This document shows positions 325-62,407 of a stretch of DNA of 64,000 nt, piece by piece. The notes under the pieces are model-generated. The model saw only the letters and a list, made by a program, of their open reading frames with translations, did not search any database and was not told where the DNA came from. This stretch comes from Escherichia coli O157:H7 (GTDB taxonomy: Bacteria > Pseudomonadota > Gammaproteobacteria > Enterobacterales > Enterobacteriaceae), in the NCBI RefSeq assembly GCF_013167455.1, contig NZ_CP038328.1. One strand, 5' to 3'. Position 1 is the first letter of the stretch. The number at the start of each line of letters is the position of its first letter. The position numbers and the translations under genes were made by a program.

Positions 325-3128
<2,804 letters not shown>

Positions 3129-3132
<4 letters not shown>

Positions 3133-4073
3133 GCGTGCGCTCCTTCATGACGACGAATGCGTGGGTCCAGTGCGGCGTTGAGCAAATCGACAATCAAATT
3201 ACAGACCACAAAAACCACCACCATCATCAGCGTAAAGCACTGGATCACCGGATAGTCACGGTTAAAAATCGCCGACACCGCATAGCGCCCGACGCCGGGC
3301 CAGGTAAAGATGTTTTCGATAATCATCGTCCCGCCAATCAGTTCGCCAATGTGCATCCCCACGGCGGTGATCATCGGCAGCGAGGCATTGCGCAGAATAT
3401 GACGACGCTCGGTCTGTTTGTCATTCAGGCCGCGTAGCCGCGCCCAGGTGACGTGACGCTGACCGGCGACGTCCAGCATACTGGCGCGCAGCAGCCGTGC
3501 GTTAATCGCCAGCGACATAAAGGCAATGGAAACCGCAGGCAAAATGATGTGCTGCCAGCCGCCGTAGCCCATCGCGGGTAGCCATTGCAGATACACCGAA
3601 AACGCCATCACCAGTAAAAATGCCAGCCAGAAGTTGGGCATCGACACGCCGAGAAACGCGATGAAACGTACGGCGAAATCCGGCAGACGGTCACGATGGC
3701 GCGCCGCCCAGATACCGAGCGGTACGGAAGTGAGCAGAATTAATACCAGCGCCGCACCCGCCAGTTCCAGCGTGGCGGGCAGGAAGTTCAGCATATCGTC
3801 CAGCACCGGGCGCTGCGTGGCAAATGAGATGCCGAAATCAAGATGCAGCGCCTTCCACAACCAGGTGCCGTACTGCACATACAGCGGCTGATCCAGTCCC
3901 AGCATGGTGCGGGTAGAGGCCAGCATCTCCGGCGTCGGCGGCAGGTTAGACAGACGCAAATAATCGAGCGCCGGGTCGCCGGTACCGAGGCGCAGCATCA
4001 GAAAAATGATCACCGAGGCGGCGAGCACCATCGGGATCAGCAGCAGAAAGCGGCGTAATACGTAACGCAACAT
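3129..4073 (-). CDS. nikB: Nickel ABC transporter permease NikB
   Basis: 314-aa DppB/OppB-type permease; tightly packed in the operon. Confidence 0.93.
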
Positions 4074-5647
4074 TAAGGTTTCACCGGTTTAATCTGTTCG
4101 AACGGAATTTCGGTGGCGATCGGCGCGTAGGGGATGTTACCCAGCTCCGGTTTTGATACCACCATCATTGAGATGTAACTGATAGGCAGATAAACCGCCT
4201 CGTCATGCAGACGGGTCAGAATGTCGCGATACAGTGCCTGACGTTGTGCTTCGTCATGGGTCGCCAGCACTTCGCCGATCTCTTTATCAATCAGCGGCTT
4301 GTCGGCTAATCCTTGCTGTGCCTGGAAGTCAGCGTGCGACGGTACGCGCATTGAACTCAGGAAGGCGTGTGGATCGTATGGCGCGCCCCAGGTGCGGTGG
4401 AAAATCATGCCAAAACGACCGTCGCGCTGACGCGCATAGATACTGCTCTCTTCTTCGCCAATCAGCGAGACATCTGCGCCAATCTGGCGCATATCAGCCT
4501 GAATGATTTCCGCCATCGATTTGCTTAACGCATCGGTGCCGATGAACGAAAGTTCAATGTGCAGCGGCTGACCATTTTTCTCGCGGATGTCTTTGCCCGC
4601 AGGCAGCGTCCAACCGGCTTTTTCCAGCAACGCTTTCGCTTTCTGCGGATCGTACTGGCGCGGTTTCAGGCCGAGGTTGGCGTAGGGCACAGAAGGGGCA
4701 AACAGGGTGTCGGCGACCTGCTGGGTGCCATACAACGCGTTATCAATCAGCGATTTTTTGTTTACCGCGTAATTAAGAGCTTCACGTACTGCCAGCTCAT
4801 TGGTGGGGGCTTTGGCGGTATTAAGCGCCAGCATCACGGTTTCGATCGGCTGTGACAGTTGGGTATGGTAAGCCGGGTTCTGGCTAAAGCGGGCGAAGGT
4901 ATCGAGCGGTAATAACCCTTCGTTTCCGTACAGCAGGTCGATATCGCCAGTTTCAAACGCCACCGCGCGGGTAGTCGGGTCTGGGATGACGTTAAAAGTG
5001 ATCTTCTTAATTGCCGGCTTTTCGCCCCAGTAGTTTTCGTTACGGACGAAGACATCGTACTGATTCAGTTTCGATTCCTGCAAAACCCACGGTCCGGTGC
5101 CAATCGGCGCTTTAATCCCGTTCATGGTTTCATGGTTTTTAAACTGCGAGGGGGCGATAAAGCGGAAAGGGCGCGGCAGGGCCAGTTCTTGCAGGAAAGG
5201 ATAGTAGGCGCTTTTCAGGGTGATTTGCAGCTCTGTTTTACTGAGTGCTTTAACATCAACAATCTGGTTTGCCAGCTCCAGCCAGGCGTGACGTTGACGG
5301 TTATCGAGCACTGCGCGGAAGTTTTCTGCCGCCGCCTCTGCATCAAACGGTTCGCCGTTAGAGAATTTCACGTCATCACGCAGGGTGAAGGTCCAGATTT
5401 TACCATCTTCTGAATGAGTCCAGCTTTTTGCCAGCCACGGGATCACCGAACCGTCTGCCTGATATTTCACCAATGGTTCATAAACCATGCTCTGGGCGAA
5501 CATCTGGTTAGGCGTGTAAAGGTGCGGGTTTAGTGGCCCGACATTCACCGGCCAGGCGGTGGTGATTTCATCTGGTGCAGCGGCATGGACGATAAAAGAC
5601 GCACAAGCCAGCAGCGCAAATAGAGTGCGGCGGAGTGTGGAGAGCAT
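4073..5647 (-). CDS. nikA: Periplasmic nickel-binding protein NikA
   Basis: 524 aa with N-terminal signal peptide; family-5 solute-binding protein; first gene of the nik operon. Confidence 0.93.
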
Positions 5648-5685
5648 GGTAACCCCAATGGATTAAAATAGATGGCGGAAATAAG

Positions 5686-5713
5686 TATGACGATTTTAAG
5701 TATTCGTCATACT
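5686..5713 (-). promoter_or_regulatory. NikR operator in the nikA promoter (GTATGA-N16-TCATAC)
   Basis: Perfect dyad GTATGA(5686..5691)-16 nt-TCATAC(5708..5713), about 40 bp upstream of the nikA start; matches the established NikR operator architecture. Confidence 0.8.
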
Positions 5714-5757
5714 GATTACCTGTTCTGGATCAATAGATGGGCAGTCGGGTGGGCGGA

Positions 5758-6345
5758 TCAGTTAACTGAATCGATCCATTGCACACTGTCGGCGGTGAGC
5801 GTAAAGGGAGTAGGGGTGCAGATCGCCAGGCTTAAATTTTCTAGCTGACAATGGCTGACTGACAGCGAGGAGTGATAGGTGCTGTCTACGCTGACGATTT
5901 GCCAGGCGCTGCCACCACGCTGTTTAACGATGGCTTCTTTGCGCGTCCAGATGCGCCAGAACATTTCCAGTTGCTGATCAGGATGCACGGCGTCCATCTC
6001 AGCATGTTCCCCGAGGCTGAACACGGCGTTCGCCAGCCAGCGCCAGTTGGCGCGCGGGCGAATCACTTCGATATCGCAGCCGACTTCGCCTTCATCACTC
6101 AACAGCAGGGCGATATCGTCACCGCTATGGCTTAAGTTGAACCATAGCGGCGTTTCCGGCGCAAATGCAGGTTTGCCTTGTTCGCCATAGATGATCTCCG
6201 GTAGCGGGGAAAGCGTGTGCGAAAGCAATGCACGCCCCGCCAGCCAGCGTTCGCGTCGTGGACCTTGCGGTGCTTGCTCGCGTAAACCCGGTGGCAGTGG
6301 AGCTGCGCTTAAGGTCGAAACTTTCCCCAGAACTATCCGATACAT
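5758..6345 (-). CDS. acpT: 4'-phosphopantetheinyl transferase AcpT (195 aa)
   Basis: Translation from the internal ATG at 6345 (MYRIVLGKV...) gives 195 aa matching AcpT. The longer ORF-track start at 6465 would overlap the upstream KS gene and is rejected. Confidence 0.88.
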   Translation of the reverse strand: MYRIVLGKVSTLSAAPLPPGLREQAPQGPRRERWLAGRALLSHTLSPLPEIIYGEQGKPAFAPETPLWFNLSHSGDDIALLLSDEGEVGCDIEVIRPRANWRWLANAVFSLGEHAEMDAVHPDQQLEMFWRIWTRKEAIVKQRGGSAWQIVSVDSTYHSSLSVSHCQLENLSLAICTPTPFTLTADSVQWIDSVN

Positions 6346-58952: not shown

Positions 58953-58995
58953 AATTACTGCGAGCTTGCTCGCAGTAATTCATTTCTCTTTTCTC
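58953..58995 (+). terminator. gntU terminator hairpin (12-bp perfect stem)
   Basis: AATTACTGCGAG-CTTG-CTCGCAGTAATT followed by a pyrimidine-rich tract. Confidence 0.6.
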
Positions 58996-59080: not shown

Positions 59081-61205
59081 ATGGAAAAGCACGCAGCTGA
59101 ATTGCTTTTACAGCGGATGTTAGGAAATACCACCGCTACTTTCAGGGAAGGGCAATGGGAAGCCATAGACGCGGTGGTGAACCAACGGCGAAAACTGCTG
59201 GTTGTCCAACGCACTGGCTGGGGGAAAAGTGCTGTGTACTTCATCGCCAGTAAAATCTTCCGCGATCGCGGCGCTGGCCCGACAATTATCATCTCTCCTT
59301 TGCTTGCCCTGATGCGTAACCAGGTTGCCGCCGCTGAACGGTTAGGTATTACGGCTGAAACGTTGAATTCTACAAACAGAGAAGAATGGCAGCGCATTAG
59401 CGATAAGTTGCTGCAAGGTGAGGTCGATTGCTTGCTGGTTTCCCCGGAACGTTTGGCAAACCAGGACTTTATCGAAACGGTTTTATATCCTATAGCCGAT
59501 CATATTGGCTTGCTTGTGGTCGACGAGGCGCACTGCATCTCTGATTGGGGCCACGATTTTCGCCCGGATTACCGACGTATATTAGATATTTTGCGCAACT
59601 ACCTGCGAATACCCCTGTTCTGGGTACAACCGCGACAGCGAATAACCGTGTCGTTGAGGATATCCGTCAGCAATTGGGTGACATTGTGATTCAGCGTGGA
59701 ACGCTGGCTCGCGAAAGTTTGGCGCTTGATGCCTTAGTCTTAGGTGAACACTCATCCCGTCTGGCATGGTTAGCAACGGTTATCCCTCAGTTTTCCAAAT
59801 CGGGAATTGTTTATACCCTGACTACTCGCGATGCCGAACTTGTCGCCGAGTGGTTAAGGAAAAATGGTATCAGTGCATTTGCTTACTACAGCGGCGTGAC
59901 TTGTGAAGGCGCGGAAGATTCTAATACTGCCAGGGAATATCTGGAGCAGGCGTTGCTGGCAAATAAAATTAAAGTGCTGGTTGCGACAACGGCGCTGGGA
60001 ATGGGCTTTGACAAACCGGATTTGGGGTTTGTTATTCATTACCAGATGCCAGGTTCGATAGTTGGTTACTACTAACAGGTGGGGCGTGCCGGTCGCGGTA
60101 TCGATTCTGCTGTTGGCATACTGCTTTGCGGCAGTGAAGACCGTGCTATTCATAAATTCTTCCGTGAAAGCGCCTTTCCTGCGGAGGCGCAAATTCATGA
60201 AATACTCAACGTACTTAGCGTGAATGACGGTCTTACCTTACGAGGCATTGAACAACGGACGAATCTCCGTTATGGGCAAATAGAAAAAGCACTGAAATTA
60301 TTGGTAGCTGAAAATCCATCGCCTGTGGTGTATACCGAGAAATTATGGCGCAGAACAATTGTCAGTTTTTCTCCTGACCATGAACGAATTAACCATTTGA
60401 TGAATCAGAGAAAAAGTGAGCTGGCAGACGTTGAAAGCTATATCACGACCAAGGAGTGCAAAATGCAATTTCTGCGCCGCGCACTCGATGAGCCAGGTGC
60501 CGAACATTGTGGTAAATGTAGCAGTTGTCTTCAGCATCCGTTGTTGTCGCCCGACATTGATAGCGGCTTACTCCATGCGGCAAACTTATTTATTAAACAC
60601 GCTGACCTGTCATTAAATCTCAATAAACAGGTGGCAGCTGGGGCTTTTACGCAATACGGATTTAAAGGGAACTTGCCTGCGAGTTTACAAGGATCTACGG
60701 GGCGAATCCTTTCTCGTTGGGGATATTCCGGGTGGGGAAAGCAGGTAGCACAGGAGAAAAAAACGGGGCGATTCAGTGATGAACTGGTGGAGGCATGTGC
60801 GGAAATGGTTCGCCAACGCTGGAATCCGCATCCTGAACCAACCTGGGTATGCTGCGTTCCTTCATTAAAGCACCTCGACCTGGTTCCTGATTTTGAAAGC
60901 ACCTCGACCTGGTTCCTGATTTTGCCCGGCGACTGGCGGCGAAACTTGGCTTACCTTTTATTGATGCCATTGAAAAAGTCGTGGACAATCCACCGCAGAA
61001 AATGCAGCAAAACCGTTTCCACCAGTGTCAAAATCTCGACGGGGCGTTTGTGATTACCCCTCCTTTGATGCCTGGTCCGGCGTTGCTGGTTGACGATATC
61101 GTGGATTCTGCATGGACGCTGACAGTTCTAACAGCACTGTTACGCCAGGCAGGTTGCCCGACGGTTTATCCTCTTGCCCTTGCTTCTACCTCGGTAAAAA
61201 ATTGA
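59081..61205 (+). pseudogene. Disrupted RecQ-family DNA helicase fused to a C-terminal ComF-like phosphoribosyltransferase domain
   Basis: Three ORF-track fragments belong to one gene: Walker A GWGKS and RecQ motifs [19 protein letters not shown] and GYY*QVGRAGRG, a Cys-rich RQC-like region, and a PRTase motif ALLVDDIVDSAWT at the C-terminus. Lesions: frameshift near 59597..59612, in-frame TAA at 60073..60075, 29-bp tandem duplication at 60896..60924. Reconstructed ancestral product about 698 aa. Confidence 0.75.
60867..60924 (+). repeat. Perfect 29-bp tandem duplication inside the RecQ-like gene
   Basis: AAAGCACCTCGACCTGGTTCCTGATTTTG occurs twice back to back (60867..60895 and 60896..60924); 29 is not a multiple of 3, so the reading frame shifts. 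Confidence 0.95.
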
Positions 61206-62407
61206 TGAATCTTTCAGCCAATGCACAAGCAACTCTCCTGCTAACCAGCGATTTTTCTCGCGCGGCGGCGAGTAAGTATAAACCTCTTAGTAATAGTGAA
61301 TGGGGGAAGTTTGCATTATGGCTGAAGCACCAACGTATCAGTCCCGCCGAGCTTCTGGTGCCGCAACCGCAAGAGAAACTTACAGGCTGGAGCGATCCGC
61401 GTATTTCTCAGGAGCGTATTCTTGGCTTGCTGGCGCGTGGTCATAGTCTGGCGTTGGCGGTAGATAAGTGGCAACGCGCCGGTTTATGGATCTTAACCCG
61501 CGGAGATGCTGATTATCCCGTTCGCTTGAAAAACCGATTGCGAACGGATGCACCTCCCGTTTTATTTGGCTGCGGGAATAAAGCATTACTGCAAGCGGAA
61601 GGTATGGCGATTGTTGGCTCGCGAGATGCTCCGACTGACGATTTGCGCTATACCCAACAACTGGCCGCGAAACTGGCCCAACAGGGGATTTGCGTTATCT
61701 CTGGTGGTGCGCGAGGTATTGATGAATGTGCAATGGCGTCGGCACTGGAGGCCGGGGGAACTGCCGTTGGCGTATTAGCTGATAGCTTGTTAAAAACGAG
61801 TACGTTAGTGAAATGGCGTGAAGGGCTTATAGCAGGCAACCTGGTGTTGATTTCGCCGTTTTACCCAGAGGTACGTTTCACCGTCGGCAATGCGATGGCG
61901 CGAAATAAATATATTTATTGCCTTGCTGAAAGCGCAATGGTTGTACGTGCGGGAATGACCGGTGGAACGATAACCGGGGCGATGGAGGCATTAAAACATC
62001 AGTGGCTGCCTGTGCAGGTTAAACCAAATCAGGATATGCAATCAGCCAATTCACGATTAGTAGAAAATGGGGCGTCATGGAGTGCTGAACAGGCTGAGAA
62101 TGTGACGATCAGACTGCCAGACGTTCCTGGGCTGATGTATGACAGAGCACTCCGTAACGCTCAACCAGAACTGTTTTCGCTGCATGAAGATGACGCAAAT
62201 TACGCAGTAATGCCCGCGTATACGCCTGTCGATTTTTATCAACTCTTTGTGGCGGAACTGGCGATCCTTGCAAAGGAATCGATAAGTATTGAAAGGCTGG
62301 CGTCTTGTACTGGTTTAACCATCGAACAAATTAGTGTGTGGCTGAACCGCGCAGAAGAAGAGGGAAGGGTTATCCGATTGGGCGAAGGTCATTATCAGTT
62401 CAGGTAA
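61205..62407 (+). CDS. DprA/Smf-family (SLOG Rossmann) protein, a paralogue of the DNA-processing protein DprA
   Basis: 400 aa from the ATG at 61205, which shares a base with the TGA stop of the upstream helicase frame; Rossmann motifs AIVGSRDAPTDD and VISGGARGIDE; C-terminal winged-helix-like tail. Confidence 0.75.
   Translation: MNLSANAQATLLLTSDFSRAAASKYKPLSNSEWGKFALWLKHQRISPAELLVPQPQEKLTGWSDPRISQERILGLLARGHSLALAVDKWQRAGLWILTRGDADYPVRLKNRLRTDAPPVLFGCGNKALLQAEGMAIVGSRDAPTDDLRYTQQLAAKLAQQGICVISGGARGIDECAMASALEAGGTAVGVLADSLLKTSTLVKWREGLIAGNLVLISPFYPEVRFTVGNAMARNKYIYCLAESAMVVRAGMTGGTITGAMEALKHQWLPVQVKPNQDMQSANSRLVENGASWSAEQAENVTIRLPDVPGLMYDRALRNAQPELFSLHEDDANYAVMPAYTPVDFYQLFVAELAILAKESISIERLASCTGLTIEQISVWLNRAEEEGRVIRLGEGHYQFR

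What the first reader, a model, noticed from the sequence alone, without database searches (positions are those of the whole stretch)
59597..60078. Two further lesions in the RecQ-like gene: frameshift near 59600 and in-frame TAA within the conserved YYQ-GRAGR motif
RecQ-type similarity continues from frame 2 (...[13 protein letters not shown]) into frame 1 ([13 protein letters not shown]...) around 59597..59612, which requires a 1-bp indel. At 60073..60075 a TAA replaces the codon expected before QVGRAGRG, consistent with CAA to TAA. Together with the 29-bp duplication this makes three independent hits, arguing for relaxed or adverse selection on the helicase while the downstream DprA-like ORF stays open.
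Basis: seen in the sequence. Interest (0 to 1): 0.5.

Follow-up and report, generated by a model that had tools for sequence, protein, structure and literature searches.

The report
Dead toxin gene of RqlHI/PsyrTA
The two lesions are real, but they mark an already-annotated pseudogene: in E. coli O157:H7 the helicase-toxin gene (rqlH/psyrT) of a known toxin-antitoxin phage-defence pair has decayed, while its antitoxin gene (rqlI/psyrA) is still intact.

Summary
The window is E. coli O157:H7, 100% identical to EDL933. Against an intact allele that is 99.6% identical (strain EC1515), the RecQ-like gene at 59081..61205 has three lesions:
- one C is lost from a CC pair at 59596/59597, a frameshift at codons 172/173 between helicase motifs II and III;
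- C->T at 60073 turns CAA into TAA (Q332*), at the Q of the RecQ motif VI YYQ-GRAGR;
- an exact 29-bp tandem duplication lies at 60867..60924.

The locus is not the housekeeping recQ/dprA pair. It is RqlHI, also called PsyrTA: a RecQ-like helicase with a toxic C-terminal phosphoribosyltransferase (PRTase) domain, plus a DprA-like antitoxin. PADLOC gives PsyrT E=0 and PsyrA E=1.5e-202.

The deletion and the TAA occur together in about 306-308 of 5426 complete E. coli genomes, including all O55:H7 genomes examined. The duplication occurs in 291, O157 only, so it came later.

The decayed lineage carries 6 non-synonymous changes to 1 synonymous in rqlH. Intact alleles differ by 19 to 92 (Fisher p=3e-4). 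That fits relaxed constraint.

An open rqlI is expected by chance (p about 0.3-0.4) and also fits toxin-antitoxin logic. RefSeq already flags the gene as 'frameshifted; internal stop', and in Sakai it is pseudogene ECs_4281. This is ordinary and already known.

The parts
59081..61205 (+). rqlH / psyrT pseudogene: a RecQ-like SF2 helicase with a C-terminal PRTase toxin domain. It is split into four ORF fragments: 59081..59689, 59545..60075, 60079..61053 and 60981..61205.
   Evidence: The fragments tile the PADLOC PsyrT model at 5-174, 161-326, 330-611 and 615-687 of 689 positions. The intact orthologue scores PsyrT E=0, 1065.9 bits. PGAP notes 'frameshifted; internal stop' in EDL933, and Sakai lists it as pseudogene ECs_4281.
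59596..59597 (+). Site of the 1-bp deletion. One C of the ancestral CGC-CAA is lost at codons 172/173, between helicase motifs II (DEAH) and III (TATA).
   Evidence: Alignment to EC1515, Nissle and TR01. The exact 61-mer occurs in 308 genomes.
60073..60075 (+). TAA nonsense codon (Q332*, ancestral CAA) at the Q of helicase motif VI, YYQ-GRAGR.
   Evidence: The exact 61-mer occurs in 306 genomes.
60867..60924 (+). Exact 29-bp tandem duplication (2 x AAAGCACCTCGACCTGGTTCCTGATTTTG) at codon ~596, inside the PRTase domain. It is a second frameshift.
   Evidence: The junction 61-mer occurs in 291 genomes, all of them O157 among those listed. It is absent from O55:H7.
60607..61205 (+). Region encoding the PRTase (ComF-like) toxin domain, residues ~510-698 of the intact protein.
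   Evidence: Pfam Pribosyltran matches residues 605-683, weakly (E=0.0087). PGAP names this part 'ComF family protein' in strain 98218. PMC4670107 reports that toxicity and RqlI binding require the region beyond residue 509.
59502..59502 (+). Lineage-specific missense change R141H. Others are Q224H at 59751, P511S at 60610 and D549Y at 60724. The only synonymous change is L674L at 61130.
61205..62407 (+). rqlI / psyrA: an intact 400-aa DprA-like antitoxin. Its ATG overlaps the rqlH stop (TGATG). PGAP's model starts earlier, at 61112.
   Evidence: PADLOC PsyrA E=1.5e-202 over residues 1-400. Pfam DNA_processg_A E=4.7e-51 and SLOG cluster4. The 400-aa length matches published RqlI (PMC4670107). 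E24K at 61274 is the only change in this lineage.

Best explanation
The locus is the two-gene RqlHI (= PsyrTA) toxin-antitoxin/anti-phage module, an accessory insert between gntU and yhgN present in about 30% of complete E. coli genomes.

In the common ancestor of O55:H7 and O157:H7 the toxin/effector gene rqlH was knocked out. The two lesions responsible are the 1-bp deletion at codons 172/173 and the Q332* nonsense codon; their order is unresolved. Either one stops translation before the C-terminal PRTase domain, which is the toxic part.

After that the gene drifted neutrally. It gained four missense changes before the O55/O157 split. At the base of the O157 lineage it gained the 29-bp duplication inside the PRTase region. 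One more missense change followed later.

The antitoxin gene rqlI is still open, for two reasons. It could not be lost while the toxin was alive. And since the toxin died, too little time has passed for it to be hit.

Shown here: the identity of the genes, the exact lesions, their distribution and relative timing, and the shift from purifying to neutral substitution.

Inferred: the fragments make no active protein; the first knock-out was tolerated or mildly favoured because RqlH is costly and genotoxic; rqlI is now a dispensable orphan.
For: - The window is identical to O157:H7 genomes, and the locus is found in 1650 of 5426 genomes.
- The lesions are defined against intact alleles.
- PADLOC matches: PsyrT E=0 for the intact orthologue, PsyrA E=1.5e-202 for the window's own protein, and the fragments tile the PsyrT model.
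- Helicase and PRTase domains are found by Pfam and by alignment to RecQ.
- PGAP and Sakai already annotate a pseudogene.
- Lesion counts are 308, 306 and 291 genomes.
- No genome carries only one of the first two lesions.
- All O55:H7 genomes examined have the deletion and the TAA without the duplication. The basal O157 strains LSU61 and 493/89 have the duplication.
- Intact alleles are under strong purifying selection, dN/dS = 0.056. The decayed lineage shows 6 non-synonymous to 1 synonymous change, Fisher p=3e-4, as expected under neutrality.
- Published biology: RqlH is genotoxic through its PRTase domain, and RqlI binds and neutralises it (PMC4670107). PsyrTA defends against phage and its antitoxin could not be deleted (bioRxiv 10.1101/2022.05.11.491447). 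Expressing PsyrTA in K-12 slowed growth (10.1101/2024.12.20.629700).
Against: - No expression or protein data were available, so a residual role for a fragment cannot be excluded. Candidates are the 171-residue N-terminal ATPase piece and the 74-aa C-terminal ORF that still ends at the native stop overlapping the rqlI start.
- The order of the deletion and the TAA is unresolved.
- Point-substitution density in rqlH (6 in 2125 bp) is no higher than in neighbouring genes. The case for relaxed constraint rests on the non-synonymous to synonymous ratio and on the three disruptive lesions.
- Whether the loss was selected or neutral cannot be decided from these data.
Confidence: 0.9

Rival explanations
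1. Adaptive loss. The first knock-out of rqlH was positively selected in the O55:H7/O157:H7 ancestor because the helicase-PRTase is costly or genotoxic, for example in the microaerobic gut. It did not merely drift to fixation. This variant shares the pseudogene conclusion and differs only in the evolutionary force.
For: - RqlH alone induces SOS, filamentation and mutagenesis, and delta-rqlI strains lose fitness in vivo (PMC4670107).
- Expressing PsyrTA in K-12 caused a growth defect and gave no detectable protection in that study.
- Independent disruptions exist: an ISEcp1-blaCTX-M-15 insertion in strain 98218 with rqlI intact, and an IS-split rqlH in S. sonnei 53G (PMC4670107).
Against: - Intact alleles elsewhere show strong purifying selection, dN/dS = 0.056.
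- In an even sample of the other genomes, 30 of 31 had the canonical locus length, so loss is not generally favoured.
- A single fixation event cannot separate selection from drift or hitch-hiking in a clonal lineage.
Confidence: 0.3
2. Sequencing or assembly artefact. The gene is really continuous and the lesions are errors in this assembly.
For: Single-base indels and small duplications are common assembly errors. One other genome (WP4-S17-ESBL-03) shows frameshifts in both genes that could be errors.
Against: The same three lesions occur in 291-308 independently sequenced complete genomes, including EDL933, Sakai, TW14359, EC4115 and Xuzhou21. Their phylogenetic distribution is nested and sensible.
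Confidence: 0.01
3. Programmed recoding. A -1 ribosomal frameshift near 59596 and stop-codon read-through at 60073 still yield a full-length protein.
For: A -1 slip on CGC-AAC would formally regenerate the ancestral CAA codon and reading frame (read directly from the sequence).
Against: - There is no X_XXY_YYZ slippery heptamer at the site (sequence).
- TAA lies inside motif VI.
- The 29-bp duplication is a third frame break.
- All three lesions are derived relative to intact alleles that need no recoding.
- Substitutions in this lineage are neutral-like.
Confidence: 0.01

Closest known systems
RqlH-RqlI of extraintestinal pathogenic E. coli F11 (Russell & Mulvey 2015, PMC4670107)
   Same: - Orthologous locus with the same two genes in the same order.
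- RqlH is 698 aa: a RecQ-like helicase plus a PRTase domain.
- RqlI is 400 aa: a DprA-like region plus a predicted helix-turn-helix.
- The rqlH stop and rqlI start overlap.
- B2-type alleles such as Nissle and CFT073 are about 95.7% identical in DNA to the window.
   Different: In O157:H7 and O55:H7 rqlH is a pseudogene with two or three disruptive lesions. The toxin that makes rqlI essential for fitness in F11 should therefore be absent.
PsyrTA toxin-antitoxin / anti-phage system (Sberro 2013; Millman 2022, bioRxiv 10.1101/2022.05.11.491447)
   Same: Both proteins match the PADLOC PsyrT and PsyrA models end to end. It is the same family, and the published name is treated as a synonym of RqlHI.
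   Different: The window's copy lacks an intact PsyrT. It would count as an incomplete, non-functional system with an orphan PsyrA.
ShosTA (PRTase toxin with a DprA-like antitoxin; PMC11961720)
   Same: The DprA-like antitoxin also matches ShosA models (E=2.7e-27). The toxin logic is also PRTase-based, with DNA damage and filamentation.
   Different: ShosT has no RecQ-like helicase domain. The window's proteins score far better against the PsyrT/PsyrA models.
Housekeeping RecQ and competence protein DprA/Smf
   Same: The helicase core aligns with E. coli RecQ from motif I to motif VI. RqlI carries the DNA_processg_A domain.
   Different: Both score below the NCBIfam equivalog cut-offs: recQ 298 bits against 640.2, dprA 102.8 against 191.15. 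RqlH has an extra PRTase domain. The locus is accessory and is absent from K-12 (PMC4670107).
IS-split rqlH in Shigella sonnei 53G (PMC4670107) and the ISEcp1-blaCTX-M-15 insertion in E. coli 98218
   Same: These are independent natural inactivations of rqlH that leave rqlI intact.
   Different: The mechanism differs: mobile-element insertion rather than a point deletion, a nonsense codon and a tandem duplication.

Membership tests
PsyrTA / RqlHI | The toxin gene encodes a RecQ-family SF2 helicase core (motifs I-VI). | tested here: met
   The intact orthologue scores 253.9 bits on NCBIfam recQ_fam, above the 219.8 cut-off. Pfam finds DEAD and Helicase_C. It aligns with RecQ structure 1oyw. The window's fragments tile the PsyrT model.
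PsyrTA / RqlHI | [quoted passage not shown] | tested here: met
   The PsyrT model is covered to position 687 of 689. Pfam Pribosyltran matches residues 605-683, only weakly (E=0.0087). PGAP names the C-terminal part 'ComF family protein'.
PsyrTA / RqlHI | A DprA-like antitoxin is encoded immediately downstream, overlapping or abutting the toxin stop. | tested here: met
   PsyrA E=1.5e-202 over residues 1-400. Pfam DNA_processg_A E=4.7e-51. The TGATG overlap at 61203-61207 is visible in the sequence.
PsyrTA / RqlHI | An intact, translatable toxin ORF, that is, a complete functional system. | tested here: not met
   There is a frameshift at 59596/7, a TAA at 60073 and a 29-bp duplication at 60867-60924. 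PGAP notes 'frameshifted; internal stop'.
PsyrTA / RqlHI | The toxin is toxic and is neutralised by the antitoxin, and the pair protects against phage. | not testable with these tools
   This is known only from the literature for orthologues (PMC4670107; 10.1101/2022.05.11.491447). It was not measured for this allele.
Housekeeping RecQ (TIGR01389 / PRK11057 equivalog) | The score reaches the equivalog cut-off. | tested here: not met
   298 bits against a cut-off of 640.2, and 226 bits against 1015.
Competence DprA/Smf (TIGR00732 equivalog) | The score reaches the equivalog cut-off. | tested here: not met
   102.8 bits against a cut-off of 191.15.
Programmed ribosomal frameshift / read-through gene | A slippery heptamer at the shift site, and conservation of the recoding signal in relatives. 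| tested here: not met
   There is no X_XXY_YYZ motif around 59590-59600. Relatives carry an uninterrupted ORF.

The most novel reading that the evidence does not exclude
The orphan antitoxin RqlI is not just a leftover. It is kept by selection in O55:H7/O157:H7. It might work as an 'anti-addiction' or immunity factor that neutralises PRTase toxins of the PsyrT/ShosT type arriving on phages, satellites or plasmids. Or it might have an independent DprA-like role in handling single-stranded DNA. Its expression would have been rewired after translational coupling to rqlH was lost.
Probability: 0.08. Interest if true: 0.45.

Novelty: already known. Interest (0 to 1): 0.15.

Why it matters
The main value is for annotation and interpretation. 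O157:H7 should be scored as lacking a working PsyrTA/RqlHI defence system, even though both gene names appear in its annotation. 'RecQ family helicase' and 'DprA' here do not mean DNA-repair or competence functions.

The lineage is a natural toxin-null, antitoxin-only state of a system whose mechanism is still poorly understood. Comparing it with ExPEC strains, where rqlI is a fitness factor, could be useful.

Fixing the order of lesions also gives small lineage markers for the O55:H7 to O157:H7 stepwise model: the deletion and TAA came before the split, and the duplication at the base of O157. None of this changes current understanding.

Tried and rejected
- I tried to list the genomes that have the deletion and TAA but no duplication, using a 1442-nt synthetic 'no-duplication' query. 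It failed because the tool joins the two overlapping pieces in duplication-bearing genomes and ranks them first. A 218-nt query with a short 3' flank and a strict E-value solved it.
- I searched for single-lesion intermediates with two synthetic haplotypes, deletion-only and TAA-only. There was no exact match, so the order of the first two lesions stays open. At most about two genomes could hide behind an extra SNP, given the counts of 308 and 306.
- The consensus promoter scan found no sigma-70-like site upstream of rqlH or rqlI on the + strand. It says nothing about expression.
- A literature search for the Sakai locus tags ECs4280-4284 found nothing.
- I considered and rejected three readings: housekeeping RecQ/DprA (below the equivalog cut-offs), assembly error (hundreds of concordant genomes) and programmed recoding (no slippery site, three breaks, derived state).
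- I did not survey ORF integrity in all 1650 loci, because the tools do not allow bulk retrieval. Only an even sample by locus length and a few individual loci were inspected.

Full report
**What the sequence is**

The 3.5 kb around the finding is 100% identical to many E. coli O157:H7 chromosomes, including EDL933. The gene order is gntR-gntK-gntU, then a RecQ-like gene, then a DprA-like gene, then yhgN on the minus strand, then asd.

RefSeq/PGAP already annotates the RecQ-like gene in EDL933 as a pseudogene, 'frameshifted; internal stop'. The curated Sakai record lists it as pseudogene ECs_4281, next to ECs_4280, 'DNA processing chain A'.

**Checking the observation**

ORF 59081..59689 carries ...[13 protein letters not shown]..., and ORF 59545..60075 carries ...[17 protein letters not shown]... 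and stops at TAA 60073..60075 after ...GSIVGYY. The next ORF begins at QVGRAGRG.

I aligned 59081..61205 to intact alleles from strain EC1515 (99.6% identical over the locus) and from Nissle. There are three frame-breaking differences:
- One C is lost from CGC-CAA at 59596/59597, at codons 172/173.
- C->T at 60073 changes CAA to TAA, giving Q332*.
- An exact 29-bp tandem duplication lies at 60867..60895 and 60896..60924. Tandem Repeats Finder also found it, with 2.0 copies and 100% match.

Alignment to the solved E. coli RecQ structure 1oyw puts codon 332 on the Q of YYQETGRAGR, helicase motif VI. It puts the frameshift between DEAH (motif II) and TATA (motif III).

**What the genes are**

The intact orthologue matches the PADLOC model PsyrT end to end (E=0, 1065.9 bits). 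The downstream protein matches PsyrA (E=5e-202). The window's own four ORF fragments tile the PsyrT model at positions 5-174, 161-326, 330-611 and 615-687 of 689. The window's 400-aa downstream protein matches PsyrA at E=1.5e-202.

Pfam finds DEAD and Helicase_C, plus weak RecQ_Zn_bind and Pribosyltran, in the helicase. It finds DNA_processg_A plus a SLOG domain in the partner.

Both proteins fall below the NCBIfam equivalog cut-offs for true RecQ (298 bits against 640) and true DprA (103 against 191). They are not the housekeeping genes.

The pair is the published RqlH-RqlI system of extraintestinal pathogenic E. coli (ExPEC), the same as PsyrTA. The literature reports the following:
- RqlH (698 aa) is genotoxic through its C-terminal PRTase domain.
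- RqlI (400 aa) binds that domain and neutralises it.
- The two genes form an operon, with rqlH upstream and its end overlapping rqlI.
- K-12 lacks both genes (PMC4670107).
- PsyrTA was later shown to protect against phages, and its antitoxin could not be deleted (bioRxiv 10.1101/2022.05.11.491447).

The published 400-aa length and the PsyrA model both place the true rqlI start at 61205, in a TGATG overlap with the rqlH stop. PGAP's upstream ATG at 61112 is probably wrong.

**Distribution and order of the lesions**

The locus is present in 1650 of 5426 complete E. coli genomes.

| Lesion | Genomes with the exact 61-mer |
|---|---|
| 1-bp deletion | 308 |
| TAA at 60073 | 306 |
| Duplication junction | 291 |

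Synthetic deletion-only and TAA-only haplotypes have no exact match in the collection. The two older lesions therefore always travel together, and their order cannot be resolved.

Every O55:H7 genome I retrieved (DEC5B, CB9615, RM12579, USDA5905) has the deletion and the TAA but not the duplication. Five further genomes rank with CB9615, RM12579 and USDA5905 against the duplication-free query: DEC5A, DEC5D, DEC5E and TB182A, all named O55:H7, and strain 2013C-4465, whose record gives no serotype. They also match the deletion-bearing haplotype with a single difference and a deletion-length span.

The basal O157 strains LSU61 and 493/89 already carry the duplication. They still have the ancestral bases at 59751 and 61274.

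The inferred sequence of events is:
1. Stem of O55/O157: R141H, the 1-bp deletion, Q332*, P511S, D549Y and the synonymous L674L.
2. Base of O157: the 29-bp duplication inside the PRTase region.
3. Typical O157:H7: Q224H in rqlH and E24K in rqlI.

**Selection**

Between the intact alleles of EC1515 and Nissle, rqlH shows dN/dS = 0.056, from 19 non-synonymous and 92 synonymous differences. The gene is clearly maintained elsewhere.

In the O55/O157 lineage the point changes in rqlH are 6 non-synonymous (one of them the nonsense codon) to 1 synonymous. That differs from the intact-allele ratio (Fisher p=3e-4) and matches the neutral expectation of about 76% non-synonymous. This supports relaxed constraint.

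It does not show selection for loss. After the first knock-out all later hits are neutral. The raw substitution density in rqlH (6 in 2125 bp) is similar to that of neighbouring genes.

The open rqlI frame is also uninformative. If the two later disruptive events fell at random over rqlH plus rqlI, rqlI would escape with p about 0.3-0.4.

The pattern does fit toxin-antitoxin logic. The toxin can be lost at any time, but the antitoxin only after the toxin.

Outside this lineage inactivation looks uncommon. In an even sample of the ranking, 30 of 31 other genomes had the canonical locus length. The exceptions I looked at were:
- an ISEcp1-blaCTX-M-15 insertion in rqlH with rqlI intact, in strain 98218;
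- one genome with frameshifts flagged in both genes, possibly assembly error.

**Rival readings**

- Assembly error is excluded by hundreds of concordant independent genomes.
- Programmed recoding is excluded for four reasons. There is no slippery heptamer at 59596. The TAA lies in motif VI. There is a third frame break. And all three lesions are derived relative to uninterrupted alleles.
- Adaptive loss is plausible but untestable here. RqlH is genotoxic (PMC4670107), and PsyrTA slowed the growth of K-12 in one study (10.1101/2024.12.20.629700).

**Verdict**

The finding is a correct reading of a real but ordinary feature that is already annotated. It is the decayed toxin/effector gene of a known toxin-antitoxin defence pair in the O55:H7/O157:H7 lineage, with its antitoxin gene still intact.

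What this work adds is modest. It gives the family assignment (RqlHI/PsyrTA rather than RecQ/DprA) and the exact ancestral states. It also gives the relative timing of the three lesions and a quantitative test of relaxed constraint.

Noticed in passing
window 60867-60924; loci L005-L008 (RM19259, M1300706002, PNUSAE008512, PNUSAE014970): The 29-bp duplication is polymorphic within typical O157:H7. Seven genomes lack it although they carry the derived bases 59751C and 61274A. The basal strains LSU61 and 493/89 have it with the ancestral bases. This four-gamete conflict is best read as secondary, precise loss of one repeat copy. The duplication has no flanking microhomology, so an identical second gain is unlikely.
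   Followed up: partly
L012 (NZ_CP033605.1, 'O157:H7' strain TR01), locus 3016-6314: A genome labelled O157:H7 carries an intact rqlH (WP_000410812.1) and non-O157 alleles of gntR, gntK and yhgN. Either the region was replaced by recombination or the strain lies outside the classical O157:H7 clone.
   Followed up: partly
L016 (NZ_CP173493.1, strain 98218), locus 2421-5586: An ISEcp1-blaCTX-M-15 transposition unit is inserted in rqlH. It leaves only the PRTase part, annotated 'ComF family protein', and an intact rqlI. This is an independent natural knock-out of the toxin gene.
   Followed up: partly
L017 (NZ_AP022044.1, WP4-S17-ESBL-03): Both rqlH and rqlI are flagged as frameshifted in this genome. 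This could be real double decay or homopolymer errors in the assembly.
   Followed up: no
window 59081-60300 (helicase half of rqlH), against L002 and L003: Intact rqlH alleles fall into deeply diverged classes. Between EC1515 and Nissle, dS is 0.21 overall and up to 0.62 in codons 301-400, against 0.03 in rqlI, 0.04 in asd and 0.12 in gntU. For a 538-nt helicase segment, 1104 genomes are only 90-95% identical to the window. dN/dS stays at 0.056. This suggests old allelic lineages or imported segments in the helicase part only.
   Followed up: partly
window 60981-61205: The PADLOC model PDLC02869, named 'DpdF' and 74 positions long, matches this 74-aa fragment ORF end to end (E=2e-56). Model PDLC02866 (255 positions) also matches the C-terminal part. 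These models look as if they were built from fragments of psyrT-like pseudogenes. They could mislabel PsyrT remnants as DpdF.
   Followed up: no
window 61112-61207: PGAP starts the DprA-like CDS at ATG 61112 (431 aa, overlapping rqlH by 94 nt). The PsyrA model and the published 400-aa RqlI fit ATG 61205, which overlaps the rqlH stop (TGATG). That arrangement suggests translational coupling, which the upstream lesions would now break.
   Followed up: partly
window 58953-58980: A perfect 12-bp-stem hairpin (AATTACTGCGAG-CTTG-CTCGCAGTAATT) followed by a T-rich tract lies right after the gntU stop. It is a likely gntU terminator and separates gntU from the rqlHI operon.
   Followed up: no
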